From: Raja brachyura
Taxonomy: Eukaryota
Direction of reading: 5' to 3'
DNA: 64,000 bases
Assembly: GCA_963514005.1 (NCBI GenBank)
Contig: OY740786.1
Coordinates: 21,700,001-21,764,000, forward strand
Shown here: positions 54,001-63,000 of the stretch, piece by piece
Layout: each line of letters begins with the position of its first letter
How positions within the stretch are numbered: the first letter of the stretch is position 1
Program-made: the position numbers

Positions 54001-57000
54001 ATTCATTGTTGTATTTGTTGTATCTATCGCTACTATGTATATGTTTGCTCCTGTGAGCTTCGTGAGAAGGATGAATTTTATTACATCCTTGTGAGTATGA
54101 CAATAACCATCTGAATCTGTATCTGAGGTTACATTTTAATCAAATAACCTAACCAATTAATTTGATTGCTCTTTTAAAGAGCTAGGTACGTAAGTAAGTA
54201 AGTTTATTGGCCAAGTATTCACATACAAGGAATTTGCCTTGGTGCTGTGCAAAGAATTTGTCTTGGTAGGCCTGAATAGTAAGAGTAAAATGAGAACTTA
54301 CCAGTTTGAAGTTTGATCTTTATTTTATGAGGAGTTACGATGAGGGATTACGTGAAGACCCCCCCAGCACGCGTGCGCAACATTCTTCAAAGCAGTGGTG
54401 TGAAATCACAGATACCAAAGTTGACTAACATAGTAAGATAAGAGAGAACTTTATATACCAGTTGACCTTTATAATAAGAGAGTTTGGGAGCAGAGGGCAC
54501 GTAATCCCTCATCGTAACTCCTCATAAAATAAAGATCAAACTTCAAACTGGTAAGTTCTCATTTAATCTTAATATTTTACATAGAAACATAGAAACATAG
54601 AAAATAGGTGCAGGAGTAGGCCATTCGGCCCTTCGAGCCTGCACCGCCATTCAATGTGATCATGGCTGATCATCCAACTCAGTATCCCGTACCTGCCTTC
54701 TCTCCATACCCCCTGATCCCTTTAGCCACAAGTGCCACATCTAACGCCCTCTTAAATATAGCCAATGAACTGGCCTCAACTACCTTCTGTGGCAGAGAAT
54801 TCCAGAGACTCACCACTCTCTGTCTAAAGAATGTTTTCCTCATTTCGGTCCTAAAGGAATTCCCCCTTATCCTTAGACTGTGACCCCTTGTTCTGGACAC
54901 CCCCAACATCGGGAACAATCTTCCAGCATCTAGCTTGTCCAACCCCTTAAGAATTTTGTAAGTTTCTATAAGATCCCCCCTCAATCTTCTAAATTCCAGC
55001 GAGTACAAGCCGAGTCTATCCAGTCTTTCTTCATATGGAAGTCCTGCCATCCCAGGAATCAGTCCGGTGAACCTTCTCTGTACTCCCTCAATGGCAAGAA
55101 TGTCTTTCCTCAGAGACCAAAACTGTACGCAATACTCCAGGTGTGGCCTCACCAAGACCTTGTACAACTGAAGTAGAACCTCCCGGCTCTTGTACTCAAA
55201 TCCTTTTGCTATGAATGCCAACATACCATTCGCTTTCTTCACAGCCTGCTGCACCTGCATGCCTACTTTCAATGACTGGTGTACCATGACACCCAGGTCT
55301 CGTTGCATCTCCCCCTTTCCTAATCTGCCACCATTCAGATAATAGTCTACCCTCATGTTTTTGCCACCAAAGTGGATAACCTCACATTTATCCACATTAT
55401 ACTGCATCTGCCATGCATCTGCCAATTCACTCAGCCTATCCAAATCACCCTGCAGCCTCCAAGCATCCTCCTCACACCTAACTATACCCCCCAGCTTGGT
55501 ATCATCTGCAAATTTGGAGATGTTGCATTGAATTCCCTCGTCCAAATCATTAATATATATTATAAATAGCTGGGGTCCCAGCACTGAGCCTTGCGGCACC
55601 CCACTAGTCACTGCCTGCCATTCTGAAAAGGACCCGTTTACTCCTACCCTTTGCCTCCTGTCTGCTAGCCAGTTCTCTATCCACATCAATACTGAACCCC
55701 CAATACCGTGTGCTTTAAGTTTGTATGCTAATCTCTTATGCGGGACCTTGTCGAAAGCCTTCTGAAAGTCTAGATATAACACATCCACTGGTTCTCCCTT
55801 ATCCACTCTACTAGTTACATCCTCAAAAAATTCTATCAGATTTGTCAGACATGATTTACCTTTCGTAAATCCATGCTGACTTTGTCCAATGATTTCACCA
55901 CTTTCCAAGTGCGCTGCTATCCCATCTTTAATAACTGACTCTAGCAGTTTCCCCACTACCGATGTTAGACTAACTGGTCTGTAATTCCCCGCTTTCTCTC
56001 TCCCTCCTTTTTTAAAAAGTGGGGTTACATTAGCTACCCTCCAATCCTCAGGAACTACTCCAGAATCTAAGGAATTTTGAAAAATTATCACTAATGCATC
56101 CACTATTTCTGTGGCTACCTCCTTGAGTACTCTGGGATGCAGACTATCTGGCCCTGGGGATTTATCGGCCTTCAATCCGTTCAATTTATCCAACACCACC
56201 TCCCGGCTAACCTGGATTTCACTCAGTTCCTCCATCTTATTTGACCCCCGTTCCACTGCTATTTCCGGCAGATTATTTATGTCTTCCTTAGTGAAGACAG
56301 AACCAAAGTAGTTATTCAATTGGTCTGCCATGTCCTTGTTCCCCATGATCAATTCACCTGTTTCTGACTGCAAGGGACCAACATTTGTTTTAACTAGTCT
56401 CTTTCTCTTCACATATCTATAAAAACTTTTGCAGTCAGTTTTTATGTTCCCTGCCAGTTTCCTTTCATAATCTATTTTCCCTTTCCTAATTAAGCCCTTT
56501 GTCCTCCTCTGCTGCATTCTGAATTTCTCCCAGTCCTCCGGTAGGCTGCTTTTTCTGGCAAATTTGTATGCCTCATCTTTTGTTTTTATACTATCCCTGA
56601 TTTCCCTTGTTATCCATGGATGCACCACCTTCCCCGATTTATTCTTTTGCCAAACTGGTATGAACAACTTTTGTACTTCATCCATGCAGTCTTTAAATAC
56701 CTTCCATTGCACATCCACTGTCAACCCTTTAAGAATCACCTGCCAGTCTATCTTGGCCAATTCACATCTCATACCTTCAAAGTTACCTTTGTTCAAGTTC
56801 AGAACCCTTGTTTCTGACTTAATTTTGTCACTCTCCATCCTAAAGAAGAACTCAACCATATTATGGTCACTCTTGCCCAAGGGGCCACGCACAACAAGAC
56901 TGCTAACTAACCCTTCCTCATTACTCAATACCCAGTCTAGAATAGCCTGCTCTCTCGTTGGTTCCTCCACATGTTGGTTGAGAAAACCAACATTTTACTT

Positions 57001-60000: not shown

Positions 60001-63000
60001 GAAACAAGTGCAACCGTCCCCTAACCCGTGATGAGCCTAGACATGCTATGTTTACGAGGCAACCAGACCCACCTACCTCCATGGTTACCAGCGGTGCTGT
60101 GTTGGTTGTCTCTGTTGCTTCTTGTTCTGTTGTGTTGCTGCGTTGTGGGGTTGGCGCATTTTCCAAGATGGTGGGCCGGCCTTCGAGCTTTCACCACCAG
60201 ATGGTCTTCGTTGTAGCGGTGCCAGATGGTTGCGTAGGGGTGCTGCCACCGCTGATATGGGGTTTTGGAGGTGGTTGGCACCTTTATCATGCCGATTGCC
60301 TTAGCCTCCTCATCCAGGTCTTTAACCTGCTTAGGGAGGTTGTCCCCAAACAGCAATGTAGGCGGCTGTGCACTGCTAGGCCTGTATAATCCCGCAAACA
60401 TGGGATTGAGTGCAGGTTTTATGATGCTCTTCCTGTAGCTGTTGATTTTAAACAGCGTGGTGCACAGAAGTGCTAGAGTGTCTTGCAGCTCTTCAGGCAT
60501 CTCAACCCCATTGACATTTCTGGCTACTGCTGTAATCCCAGCAGCTAGCAGTTTGAGGATTCTTTGGAGTTTCACCTCCTGGCTCCTTATGGTCGGGTTC
60601 ATGTTGCCCCAAATGGGGTTGTTGACAGCAGGTACATTAAGAGAAATACAATTCTCTGGCGCAAGGTATTTTTCTGTCGTATTGTTAATTGCTAGTTCCT
60701 GCAGCTGGTTCGTTGCCATGTAATTAATACTGGCAGCCGGCTTGGGATGCAATGGCAGACCTTTTTGGGTAGGTATAGCAAATTTATTGACCATACCCAA
60801 AAGTTCTTCTTTTGCGGCACCCCTAACACAGGTGAGTCTTCAGCCATGTCCCCTTCTTCAGGGTCAGCCCAGTTCTGACCCCCAATGCTCCCCTGCGAAG
60901 AGGGTGAGACATTTGGCAGTCCTTGATAGGAAACTGCTGTGGGTCTGCGAAGAGACCCACTGTGGCTCTGCCCCTGCATAAGCAGGTCACGCTGGAGCAA
61001 TTGCTCCACCATCCGCTCCATGCGGGAAAGACACCCGCCGTCACTATAGGCGAACGGGATCTCCTCAGGTCCGGACCCAGCCGAGTCTACGGACCTGTCT
61101 GACTTCCGGGTGGTTTTGCCGCCGGACCGCGGCGCACCTGCGGTCTGTTGCGGCGAGAAGTCGGGAGCTGCTGGCAGCACCTGCAGCTCTGGAGACTCGG
61201 CACGCTGCTGGCTGGTTTCCACAGCAGCGATTTTTGCCGCTGTTCTCCTCGATTTCCTGGACTCCATGCTGTTCTTCTTGGCTGTGAAAATACACACACA
61301 CACAGTCTTTTCCAGAATGGTAAGTACTTACCTCTGGTTGTCTTTTTGACTTATGCTGGAGGAGCGACGCTTCCTCCCGACTGTCGCTTCCGCAATGTGT
61401 TCGACGATATGTCGCACATGTGTGCTGGCGGGGTCTTCACGTAGTCACTCACGTGACTCCGAAGTAAAATGGCAGAATGGCTTGCTTCTCTGCAAAGTAA
61501 ATCTACAATAGTTTTGAGTATTCAGTTCTGGGGTAAAGGCATCACTGACAATGCACCACTTCCTCCCATTCCCGTCGCTCCTGAACTGAAGGGCTTCTGT
61601 TTCAGAGTGGAAAAGTCAACTGAATCCTTGTGTGTTTCCAGCCAGGTCAGATACGGACTGCTCATTTCCCCTCTCGAAAAGAACATTATTAGTGCATTGG
61701 TTAGGTATTAACATTAGGTGAGGTGACCAAAAGGTCAGGTCAAAGGGCTAACTGTTAATTAGCACCTTCTCGGAGAACTGAGAGGTTGAAATGCGGTGAC
61801 AAAAATGTAAAGTTTTTTTTGTTTGTTTTACATCAATATTTGCATTAAATAATAATTCTGACAAAATCTATTGGAGCATATCAACCTTATACCTCACAGT
61901 CTCACAATACAACTTTATTGAACAAAGGGCCAGCCTTCAAATAAAAAGAGTCAGGTTCCTAGACACTGCTCGAAATTGCAGCAAGCTGCAGCGAGGAATG
62001 TGATATTTCAGAAGACTCCATGGGGAAACAAAAATCGAAAGCATAATTTCTCCCTCTTCCATTTAGACCAACCCCACATCTTTCAGAACAAGATGCATGT
62101 AAGTTGAATATTTCGGCGGAGGGAAGCAGGGAGGGGATACCGGAGATTAATGTATTTGTTCCATGGTTGACTGTTAGAATGAGGCTTTTGTGCAGTTCAC
62201 CATCTGGTTTTGATTTAGTGCTATATGACACCAATTAATTAGCATTCATCACAAAGACGAGGCTCAGTTCGGGTGATTCAATAAACCACAGGTCCTACAT
62301 TCCTTCAGAATTTTAAGAATCCCAACATAATGGCTGTTGTTTTGGTCAGCATCAGATCATGATGAGCCATCAGCAGCAGTAATGTATCCCCTTCCCTCCA
62401 CTCCACACCCCACCAACAACTCCCTCCCTTCCCAGCCCTCAACCTGCTCTAACTTCACTTCTGCACCTAATCCCACAGTCTCCACACTCTCACCACCTCA
62501 ACATGACCTAACCCCCTGAACACACCTCTTGTTCCCTCACTCTGCTGCTATCTCAACGTATCCCCTCTCAGAGTGCCCTTTCTCTTTGAATCTCCCTCTC
62601 CCTGCCATATCCCACCCTATCCCTCTGGTTGACATTGGGATCCTCCTGGCTCTGATGAGAATGCAGAGCTCTCCTCATTGCTTTAGTCAACATTCCCAAC
62701 AAAACAATACAACCCATCAAAATAGATGAGTTGGCTATGCATCTCCTTGGCTGTTGCTGGGCTCTTTCTTTGCACCATAATCTGCCTCATTTGCCAAATA
62801 AGCACCGCTTACTCTTCCACAATCATGTACTGTGCGTGCATGGCTTTGGCACGCTCTGCTCAGCCAATACAACAGAAACCCTGTCCATGCAACCACCTCC
62901 CTCATTATCGTTTGATGTCAGAAGCATAGTAAAGATGAATCAACTAAATTGCTCCTCTCACTCAGCTCTATCGCTTGATGGAAGGAGCTAAACAAACATA

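What the first reader, a model, noticed from the sequence alone, without database searches (positions are those of the whole stretch)
54275..61470. Complete DIRS1 architecture with pristine ICR/termini but dead ORFs: a coding-dead copy possibly mobilised recently in trans
Seen: ICR-terminus matches are perfect (67/67 and 37/37, CpGs preserved) while gag, RT/RH/MT and YR each carry frameshifts and the two ITRs differ at 5/35. The nested CR1 ORF is open for 2.3 kb, which argues against assembly indels as the cause of the frameshifts. Known: the DIRS1 replication model regenerates both termini by copying the ICR, and a circular intermediate is integrated by the YR. Inference: ICR/terminus identity dates the insertion much as LTR-LTR identity does, so this copy may have inserted recently while already defective, implying an active DIRS helper in this genome. 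Caveat: the outermost ~13 nt (54275-54287) differ from the ICR by 2 substitutions and 1 indel. An extra 12-nt complement links 54401-54412 with 57038-57049.
Basis: partly seen in the sequence, partly recalled or inferred. Interest (0 to 1): 0.7.

Follow-up and report, generated by a model that had tools for sequence, protein, structure and literature searches.

The report
Broken DIRS retrotransposon with nested LINE
This is a full-length but gene-dead copy of a DIRS-type jumping gene, later split by a second jumping gene, and its untouched end repeats suggest it was copied while already broken; it is an ordinary kind of genomic fossil that carries a small built-in clock.

Summary
Window 54275-61470 (- strand) is one DIRS1-like tyrosine-recombinase retrotransposon with 4,778 bases of its own. 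It has gag, RT/RH/MT and YR, ATT...ATT termini, a 37-nt left ICR and a 79-80-nt right ICR meeting at an AAT junction, and a 47-nt right extension. A 5'-truncated LINE (54581-56991, 763-aa open frame, 6-7-bp target duplication) sits at the ICR centre. ICR/terminus pairs match at 67/67 and 37/37. The genes carry 9-11 frameshifts and 1 stop: gag 1-2, pol 6-7 plus the stop, YR 2. Assembly error is unlikely, because the LINE frame has no break (P 0.005-0.012) and only 2 of 10-11 frameshifts lie near homopolymers. The strongest new evidence is a sharp boundary. ICR-templated pairs show 0 of 104 mismatches and keep 5 of 5 CpG sites. The adjoining inner ITR pair shows 5 of 26 mismatches and keeps 0 of 5 CpG sites (P 0.0002 and 0.008). 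This favours decay before the last insertion, meaning copying of a defective template with proteins supplied in trans. It does not prove it: there is one copy, the pairs are short, three differences at the outer tip are unexplained, and no genome-wide data were reachable. It is a new member of a known kind, of modest interest.

The parts
54275..61470 (-). Whole DIRS1-like retrotransposon copy. The span is 7,196 nt, of which 4,778 nt are its own; the rest is a nested LINE plus one target-duplication copy.
   Evidence: The termini are ATT...ATT on the element strand, and no flanking duplication is visible in the sequence.
61409..61470 (-). Left terminus (left ITR, 62 nt). The outer 37 nt (61434-61470) are exactly complementary to the left ICR.
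61268..61408 (-). 5' non-coding leader between the left ITR and the gag start. Over 61268-61470 the CpG observed/expected ratio is 1.0.
60091..61267 (-). gag-like gene, broken by 1-2 frameshifts and 0 stops.
   Evidence: Counts-only alignment to 4 relatives gave 1, 2, 2 and 1 frameshifts at 46-54% identity. The only named relatives are uncharacterised skate proteins. There is no Pfam family.
58168..60082 (-). pol gene (RT / RNase H / methyltransferase), broken by 6-7 frameshifts and 1 in-frame stop.
   Evidence: 4 relatives gave 7, 6, 7 and 6; with the stricter penalty 2 relatives gave 6 and 6. Eight single-frame segments match the pol profile. RVT_1 scores E 7e-7. The MT region aligns to P0010 residues 400-591, E 3e-63, and P0010 has Pfam Dam at 504-606.
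57180..58175 (-). Tyrosine recombinase gene, broken by 2 frameshifts and 0 stops.
   Evidence: 5 of 5 relatives give 2 frameshifts. There is a weak Phage_int_SAM_4 match. The C-terminal piece is 81% identical to P0090, which has Pfam Phage_integrase at E 3.4e-7, and it carries the HSTR motif.
57038..57049 (.). One half of the exact 12-nt complement. It lies 9 nt 5' of the left ICR on the element strand.
56992..57028 (-). Left ICR, 37 nt, complementary at 37 of 37 positions to the start of the element. Its outer 7 nt are also one copy of the LINE target duplication.
54581..56991 (-). It has a 763-aa open frame (54679-56970), three 8-nt tail units and 6-7-bp target duplications at 54574-54580 and 56992-56998.
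   Evidence: The best solved match is LINE-1 ORF2p at E 5e-19, with query residues 119-480 aligned to chain residues 316-679, so the endonuclease part is missing. Other fragments of the family lie in the window at 68-99% identity.
54498..54576 (-). Right ICR, 79 nt. [quoted passage not shown] It overlaps the left ICR on the 3-nt junction.
54384..54497 (-). Spacer between the right ICR and the right ITR. It holds the other half of the 12-nt complement (54401-54412).
54275..54383 (-). Right terminus. The right ITR is 54322-54383 and the 47-nt right extension is 54275-54321, which pairs only with the right ICR.

Best explanation
This is one copy of a DIRS1-like tyrosine-recombinase retrotransposon, with the canonical layout: left terminus, gag, RT/RH/MT, YR, left ICR, right ICR, right ITR, right extension.

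In the published model its RNA lacks the outer ends. These are restored by copying the ICR, the ends meet at a 3-nt junction, and the recombinase inserts the product without a target duplication. The ICR/terminus pairs are therefore identical on the day of insertion and diverge afterwards.

Here they are still identical. [quoted passage not shown] The most likely history is that most of this damage arose in the lineage before the copy was made. A defective transcript with intact cis signals was reverse-transcribed and integrated by proteins from another element.

Later a 5'-truncated LINE landed in the AT-rich centre of the ICR. That splits the cis signal this copy would need in order to be copied again.

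Shown: the anatomy, the counts and the contrast between the pairs. Inferred: the order of events and the supply of proteins in trans.
For: Anatomy:
- Searches give the layout.
- Termini are ATT/ATT with an AAT junction; ICRs are 37 and 79-80 nt; the right extension is 47 nt; the element is 4,778 nt.
- All of these fall within the ranges of Table 3 of PMC3266345.

Breaks:
- 9-11 frameshifts and 1 stop in 4,079 coding bases.

The breaks are not artefacts:
- There are 0 breaks in the adjoining 2,292-nt LINE frame. P(all 10-12 breaks fall in the DIRS part) is 0.012-0.005.
- The LINE has more homopolymer runs of 5 or more than the DIRS coding part, 7.1 against 4.9 per kb.
- Only 2 of 10-11 frameshifts lie within 9 nt of such a run, against 8-12% of positions.
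- The copy keeps 81 of 87 pol positions that are at least 95% conserved in 57 relatives, where the leave-one-out median is 100%.

Clock:
- 0 of 104 paired bases differ and all CpGs are kept.
- P(0) is 0.044 at 1.5% decay and 0.002 at 3%, and lower if CpGs mutate faster.

Sharp boundary:
- ICR-templated pairs have 0 of 104 mismatches and keep 5 of 5 CpG sites in both copies.
- The adjoining inner ITR pair has 5 of 26 mismatches and keeps 0 of 5 CpG sites.
- Fisher P is 0.0002 and 0.008. 4 of the 5 mismatches are transitions.

Precedent:
- The ICR is required for DIRS-1 retrotransposition, and the DIRS-1 RT acts in trans on a truncated construct (PMC7192593).
Against: - The pairs are short. At 1% decay P(0) is 0.125, and 41 substitutions would then be expected in the coding part.
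- Only 1 stop is seen where 4.9 would be expected at 3% decay (P 0.043). This points either to less substitution decay than the frameshifts suggest or to an indel-rich process.
- The outermost 13 nt of the right end differ from the ICR at 3 places. If these count as ordinary decay, the ICR clock reads 3 in 117, and its disagreement with the conserved-position estimate disappears (P 0.17). Their clustering (P about 0.03) is the only reason to set them apart.
- 4 of 57 relatives with uninterrupted frames conserve as little as this copy at the 95% columns, and 11-12 of 57 at looser thresholds.
- The inner ITR halves may never have been identical in this family.
- A full trans-retrotransposition cycle has not been shown for any DIRS element; only cDNA was seen.
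- No second copy was available.
Confidence: 0.55

Rival explanations
1. Ordinary decay in place. An autonomous copy inserted, then gathered all its frameshifts where it lies. The short ICR/terminus pairs simply escaped mutation, and the three tip differences are the first hits.
For: - Counting the tip, the pairs differ at 3 of 117 positions. That is about 1.3% per lineage, at which 53 substitutions and 2.1 stops are expected in the coding part, against 1 stop observed.
- The comparison of conserved-position hits with ICR hits is then not significant (P 0.17).
- CpG observed/expected in the element (0.52-0.55) is only moderately above background (0.28-0.42).
Against: - The three differences cluster in 13 of 117 positions (P about 0.03).
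- 0 of 104 mismatches stands against 5 of 26 in the directly adjoining ITR stretch, and 5 of 5 against 0 of 5 CpG sites kept (P 0.0002 and 0.008).
- 9-11 frameshifts at 1.3% decay would require roughly one frameshift per five substitutions.
Confidence: 0.25
2. An old copy whose pairs were made identical again after insertion. This could happen by ectopic conversion of its 3' block from a younger copy, or by template switching within the nearby inverted repeat.
For: - The right terminus, spacer and both ICRs form one block of about 350 nt once the LINE is set aside.
- The 67-nt arms lie only 143 nt apart. From my own knowledge, imperfect inverted repeats that close together can be made perfect by template switching.
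Against: - The left pair is 37 nt and lies 4.4 kb apart, which is too short and too far for this.
- Such a process would be expected to erase the tip differences next to the perfect arm as well.
Confidence: 0.07
3. The frameshifts are assembly or read errors, and the copy is in truth intact and young.
For: - The ratio of 9-11 frameshifts to 1 stop is indel-heavy.
- Repeats are hard to polish (my own knowledge).
Against: - There is no break in the adjoining 2,292-nt LINE frame (P 0.005-0.012), although that frame has more homopolymer runs.
- 8-9 of 10-11 frameshifts are not near runs of 5 or more.
- 6 of 87 near-invariant pol positions are replaced.
- The inner ITR mismatches are substitutions.
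Confidence: 0.05

Closest known systems
DIRS1-like families with short ITRs described in molluscs (LgDIRS1, LgDIRS3, AcaDIRS1/2; Table 3 of PMC3266345, seen as passages)
   Same: The terminal layout is nearly the same. Those families have ATT/ATT ends, an AAT junction, no long ORF overlap, divergent/conserved ITR parts of 30-36 and 31-36 nt, a right extension of 48-49 nt, ICRs of 39-45 and 86-88 nt, and sizes of 4,680-5,808 bp. This copy has ATT/ATT ends, an AAT junction, ITR parts of about 27-34 and 28-35 nt, a right extension of 47 nt, ICRs of 37 and 79-80 nt, and 4,778 bp.
   Different: No sequence of those families was at hand, so kinship was not tested. The named gag relatives of this copy are from skates. 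This copy is coding-dead and carries a LINE.
Vertebrate DIRS1-like families (AcDIRS, GaDIRS, TnDIRS and XtDIRS rows of the same table; the DrDIRS1 group)
   Same: Same gene set and the same ITR/ICR logic. DIRS elements are reported from chondrichthyans, bony fishes, amphibians and reptiles, and are absent from birds and mammals (PMC4350176, passages).
   Different: The vertebrate rows I saw have conserved ITR parts of 102-148 nt, right extensions of 26-34 nt, and CTT, GTT or TTT ends.
Dictyostelium DIRS-1
   Same: It is the source of the replication model. Its 88-nt ICR is complementary to both ends and is required for retrotransposition, and its RT can act in trans (PMC7192593).
   Different: It has long terminal repeats of about 300 nt and overlapping YR and pol frames. 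In it most of the left repeat is restored from the right one, which the inner ITR mismatches here argue against for this family.
Non-autonomous LTR retrotransposons propagated by an autonomous partner (for example Dasheng/RIRE2, seen only as an entry in a reference list; otherwise recalled)
   Same: The proposed logic is the same: cis signals are kept, coding capacity is lost, and proteins come from another element. Repeat identity serves as an insertion clock.
   Different: Those are defined from many copies and usually by large internal deletions. Here there is one copy with point breaks, and the clock is only 104 nt long.

Membership tests
DIRS1-like retrotransposons (DIRS order) | Encodes a tyrosine recombinase, with its catalytic part 3' of pol | tested here: met
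   57180-58175 aligns to 5 of 5 YR relatives at 38-82% identity. P0090 and P0093 carry Pfam Phage_integrase at E about 3e-7. The C-terminal piece is 81% identical to P0090 and carries HSTR. The gene is broken.
DIRS1-like retrotransposons (DIRS order) | pol with a reverse transcriptase domain | tested here: met
   RVT_1 at E 7e-7, 29.6 bits, exactly at the curated cut-off, on one open piece. 84 relatives carry RVT_1. There are weak PDB matches to retroviral RTs and Ty3 RT.
DIRS1-like retrotransposons (DIRS order) | RNase H between RT and MT | tested here: inconclusive
   No Pfam RNase H match on the window pieces. The region aligns along the whole length of relatives, and 4 of those 84 relatives carry PF17917.
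DIRS1-like retrotransposons (DIRS order) | Methyltransferase domain after RH (absent from Ngaro and VIPER) | tested here: met
   An open pol piece aligns to P0010 residues 400-591, E 3e-63. P0010 has Pfam Dam at 504-606, E 3.2e-6, 27.4 bits, just under the 28.1 cut-off. 6 of 84 relatives carry PF05869. There is no direct Pfam hit on the window piece.
DIRS1-like retrotransposons (DIRS order) | Inverted terminal repeats rather than split direct repeats | tested here: met
   61409-61470 against 54322-54383: 81% over 63 columns and 84% over 43 nt.
DIRS1-like retrotransposons (DIRS order) | Two ICRs near the 3' end, complementary to the start and the end of the element, overlapping on a 3-nt junction | tested here: met
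   37 of 37 and 67 of 67, or 77 of 80 columns with the tip. The AAT junction is shared by both. The ICRs are now separated by the nested LINE.
DIRS1-like retrotransposons (DIRS order) | Right extension that pairs only with the right ICR | tested here: met
   54275-54321, 47 nt.
DIRS1-like retrotransposons (DIRS order) | The same NTT trinucleotide at both ends, complementary to the junction; no target-site duplication | tested here: met
   ATT and ATT. The flanks show no direct repeat in the sequence.
DIRS1-like retrotransposons (DIRS order) | gag-like first ORF | tested here: inconclusive
   It aligns to four uncharacterised skate proteins at 46-54% identity. No named gag family matched.
Non-autonomous retroelement propagated in trans | cis signals were intact when the copy was made | tested here: met
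   The ICR/terminus pairs are perfect over 104 nt.
Non-autonomous retroelement propagated in trans | Coding capacity was lost before the insertion | tested here: inconclusive
   The contrast of clocks favours it. The tip differences and the single stop weaken it.
Non-autonomous retroelement propagated in trans | Dispersed copies share the same breaks; an autonomous partner is present in the same genome | not testable with these tools
   No other copy lies in the window. 0 of 10 open pieces are in the protein collection. No collection holding this genome was available.
CR1-group LINE (the nested insertion) | Non-LTR reverse transcriptase, 5' truncation, target duplication, short tandem units at the 3' end | tested here: met
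   RVT_1 at E 3.5e-31. LINE-1 ORF2p is the best solved match, and the endonuclease part is missing. There is a 6-7-bp duplication and three 8-nt tail units. That 8-nt tail units mark CR1 is recalled, not tested.
CR1-group LINE (the nested insertion) | Placement in the CR1 clade rather than another LINE clade | not tested
   The Atlas returned only chordate RVT_1 clusters without clade names.

The most novel reading that the evidence does not exclude
A coding-dead DIRS1-like lineage that has kept only its cis signals (termini and ICR) is propagated by proteins of another element in a vertebrate genome. That would make it a natural non-autonomous DIRS. On this reading the step from perfect ICR-templated ends to CpG-decayed inner ITRs shows which bases are rebuilt at each cycle and which travel in the RNA, so ICR/terminus identity works as a per-copy insertion clock. 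The odd outer tip of the right extension could then be a trace of templating on a second molecule.
Probability: 0.35. Interest if true: 0.5.

Novelty: new member of a known kind. Interest (0 to 1): 0.3.

Why it matters
DIRS elements are the least studied order of retrotransposons, and their replication model rests largely on one amoeba element. If defective copies with intact ICRs spread in a vertebrate genome, three things would follow. DIRS proteins would be shown to act fully in trans in nature. The boundary between perfect and decayed repeat segments would map the part of the termini rebuilt from the ICR. DIRS copies could be dated one by one rather than only by distance to a family consensus, which is the method used in the Xenopus study I saw. 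From this window alone it remains a well-preserved example of a known architecture, plus a suggestive argument based on a single copy.

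Tried and rejected
- Chaining tblastn hits to count breaks was too noisy, because hits ran on into wrong frames. I replaced it with a frameshift-aware alignment that carries only score, counts and outer bounds.
- A search for other copies found nothing. blastn of the element against the window found only LINE fragments. 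tblastn with 8 relatives gave 39 hits inside the element and 0 outside. An exact look-up of 10 open pieces found 0 of 10 in the collection.
- Pfam on 9 other long ORFs of the window matched no family. Rfam on the whole window gave 0 matches.
- I tested the 12-nt complement as part of a larger pairing, folding the two 3' non-coding pieces as separate strands. The result was -37.3 kcal/mol against -37.0 +/- 5.0 for shuffles, with 135 of 300 shuffles at or below the observed value, so there is no support. The two pieces were not joined, so a fold of the ICR region without the LINE was not made.
- Clade assignment of the LINE failed. The Atlas gave no clade names, and passages of a CR1 survey held nothing on tails or duplications.
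- Literature searches for ICR-based dating or non-autonomous DIRS listed no such paper. I read only listings and the passages named here. An Ectocarpus paper treats only Ngaro and PAT-like elements.
- I rejected the idea that the LINE's position at the ICR centre needs a special explanation. The 15 nt at its edge are 13 of 15 A/T, and only 76 of 4,757 windows in the element are that AT-rich. That fits the usual preference of LINE endonucleases for AT-rich sites (recalled).

Full report
**Anatomy**

Window 54275-61470 holds one DIRS1-like retrotransposon on the - strand. Read along the element strand, it consists of:

| Part | Coordinates | Notes |
|---|---|---|
| Left terminus | 61470-61409 | 62 nt |
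| Leader | to 61268 | non-coding |
| gag-like gene | 61267-60091 | broken |
| pol (RT/RH/MT) | 60082-58168 | broken |
| Tyrosine recombinase | 58175-57180 | broken |
| Left ICR | 57028-56992 | 37 nt |
| Nested LINE | 56991-54581 | 5'-truncated |
| Right ICR | 54576-54498 | 79 nt |
| Spacer | 54497-54384 | 114 nt |
| Right ITR | 54383-54322 | 62 nt |
| Right extension | 54321-54275 | 47 nt |

- The element starts and ends with ATT. The two ICRs share the complementary AAT junction.
- No flanking duplication is visible.
- Setting aside the LINE and one copy of its target duplication, 4,778 bases belong to the element.
- A four-way alignment of both termini and both ICRs shows a short block shared by all four. 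The fine-structure paper on DIRS1-like elements describes the same feature (PMC3266345; passages, Background section).
- Every size falls within the ranges of that paper's Table 3. The closest rows are mollusc families (ATT/ATT/AAT, ITR parts of about 30-36 nt each, right extension 48-49 nt, ICRs 39-45 and 86-88 nt). The vertebrate rows I saw have much longer conserved ITR parts.

**Gene identity**

- RVT_1 matches one open pol piece (E 7e-7, at the curated cut-off).
- 84 longer relatives carry RVT_1. 6 of them carry the Dam methyltransferase family and 4 carry RT_RNaseH.
- An open pol piece aligns to residues 400-591 of relative P0010 (E 3e-63), which spans that protein's Dam match.
- The recombinase region aligns to 5 of 5 relatives. 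Two of these carry Phage_integrase. Its C-terminal piece is 81% identical to P0090 and carries the HSTR motif.
- gag has no named family. Its 4 relatives are uncharacterised skate proteins.
- I did not determine the host. I do not take the window for human sequence, since DIRS elements are reported absent from mammals (PMC4350176, passages).

**Check of the observation**

All items are confirmed; details are in the observation check. The tool gives 38 rather than 37 for the left pair, because one LINE-edge base happens to pair with one flank base.

**Breaks**

I counted breaks with a frameshift-aware alignment to uninterrupted relatives. It returns only score, counts and outer bounds.

| Gene | Frameshifts | Stops | Basis |
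|---|---|---|---|
| gag | 1-2 | 0 | four relatives gave 1, 2, 2, 1 |
| pol | 6-7 | 1 | 7, 6, 7, 6; stricter penalty 6, 6 |
| YR | 2 | 0 | 5 of 5 relatives |

- The total is 9-11 frameshifts and 1 stop in 4,079 bases.
- Eight single-frame segments match a pol profile, which fits seven breaks in pol.

**Are the breaks real?**

- The LINE frame next door is open for 2,292 nt. If breaks fell evenly, the chance that all 10-12 lie in the DIRS part is 0.012-0.005.
- The LINE has more homopolymer runs of 5 or more than the DIRS coding part, 7.1 against 4.9 per kb.
- Only 2 of 10-11 frameshifts lie within 9 nt of such a run, where 8-12% of positions do.
- The copy also shows damage by substitution. It keeps 81 of 87 pol positions that are at least 95% conserved among 57 relatives (of the 84 found, those 580-730 aa long). 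It keeps 117 of 128 at 90% and 176 of 198 at 80%.
- The leave-one-out medians for relatives are 100, 97.7 and 95.0%. However, 4, 11 and 12 of the 57 relatives score as low as this copy.

**The clock**

- In the published model the ICR is the template that restores the ends. The pairs are therefore identical at insertion.
- They show 0 differences in 104 paired bases. All five CpG sites are kept in both partners.
- With decay d per lineage, P(0) is 0.125 at 1%, 0.044 at 1.5% and 0.002 at 3%. If CpGs mutate eight times faster, the values are 0.03, 0.005 and below 0.0001.
- Replacement of 6 of 87 near-invariant residues suggests about 3% decay without constraint. Against 0 hits in the pairs this gives P 0.012.

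Two results cut the other way:
- Only 1 stop is seen where 4.9 would be expected at 3% (P 0.043).
- If the three tip differences are counted, the clocks no longer disagree (P 0.17).

**A sharper test**

- Within the termini, the stretch templated by the ICR has 0 of 104 mismatches.
- The directly adjoining inner ITR stretch, whose partner is the other ITR, has 5 of 26 mismatches.
- All five are at sites that are CpG in only one copy, and four are transitions.
- Fisher tests give P 0.0002 for positions and 0.008 for CpG sites.
- Uniform decay in place does not predict such a step. Decay along the lineage in the RNA-borne part, followed by a reset of the ICR-templated part at the last insertion, does predict it.
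- The caveat is that the inner ITR halves may never have been identical in this family, although published families are described as strictly complementary there.

**The tip**

- The outermost 13 nt of the right extension differ from the ICR by two substitutions and a 1-nt length change in an A run.
- Three differences within 13 of 117 positions is unlikely under even decay (P about 0.03).
- I cannot explain them. They may be ordinary mutations, a trace of how the outermost bases are made, or changes on the ICR side near the LINE.

**The LINE**

- It is flanked by a 6-7-bp duplication whose inner copy is the first bases of the left ICR.
- It ends in three 8-nt units and lacks the endonuclease part.
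- It belongs to a family with many fragments in the window at 68-99% identity.
- It therefore entered the resident DIRS copy by the usual LINE route. Its open frame marks it as young.
- Its site is among the most AT-rich in the element.
- It separates the two ICR halves.

**The 12-nt complement**

It is exact and is preceded on both sides by the same 8-nt direct repeat. It is unlikely by position (0.0036 expected). An energy test on the two pieces as separate strands gave no support. I leave it unexplained.

**Literature**

- DIRS-1 needs its ICR, and its RT acts in trans on a truncated construct. A full cycle in trans was not shown (PMC7192593).
- In Xenopus, 36 of 75 and 13 of 20 family consensus sequences show degeneration. 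Ages there are taken from distance to the consensus (PMC9210276, passages; supplements not seen).
- My searches listed no paper on ICR-based dating or on non-autonomous DIRS1-like elements. These were listings and passages only.

**Left unchecked**

- Other copies in this genome, raw reads, orthologous loci and transcripts were not checked.
- The N run at 11994-12208 was left alone.
- No spliced model was involved.

**Verdict**

The architecture is that of a known kind. The trans-mobilisation reading is the best single explanation (about 0.55) but rests on one copy.

Noticed in passing
window 54275-54383, 54498-54576, 56992-57028, 61409-61470: The terminal layout (short ITR parts of about 30 nt each, 47-nt right extension, ATT/ATT/AAT) matches the mollusc rows of Table 3 in PMC3266345 rather than the vertebrate rows seen there. 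Kinship was not tested because no reference sequences were at hand.
   Followed up: partly
window 54401-54412 and 57038-57049; 54387-54394 and 57030-57037: The exact 12-nt complement is preceded at both places by the same 8-nt direct repeat, so a 12-nt segment appears inverted between like flanks. It is unlikely by position, but an energy test gave no support.
   Followed up: partly
window 54275-54287 versus 54565-54576: The three differences between the outer tip of the right extension and the right ICR are two G/T changes in a repeated short motif and one length change in an A run. Their clustering is unexplained.
   Followed up: partly
window 1-226, 4083-4767, 7948-8163, 16781-17007, 21873-23113, 25242-25771, 30210-30260, 38375-38475, 45090-45371: These are fragments of the same LINE family as the nested copy, at 68-99% identity. 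The 101-nt match at 38375-38475 is 99% identical to the 3' end of the nested copy, so the family was active recently.
   Followed up: partly
window 11220-11836 and 11994-12208: A G-rich tandem array (period 23-26 nt, up to 18.5 copies) lies just before the N run. GC skew is +0.34 in 10001-12000. The N run was left alone.
   Followed up: no
window 18001-20000: A local rise of G+C to 0.50 with GC skew +0.27. The 175-aa ORF at 19280-19807 has no Pfam family.
   Followed up: no
window 26769-26861: A 34-nt tandem repeat, 2.7 copies, 94% matches.
   Followed up: no
window 54188-54206: A short GTAA-type microsatellite lies about 70 nt outside the right end of the element. I found no link to the element.
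   Followed up: no
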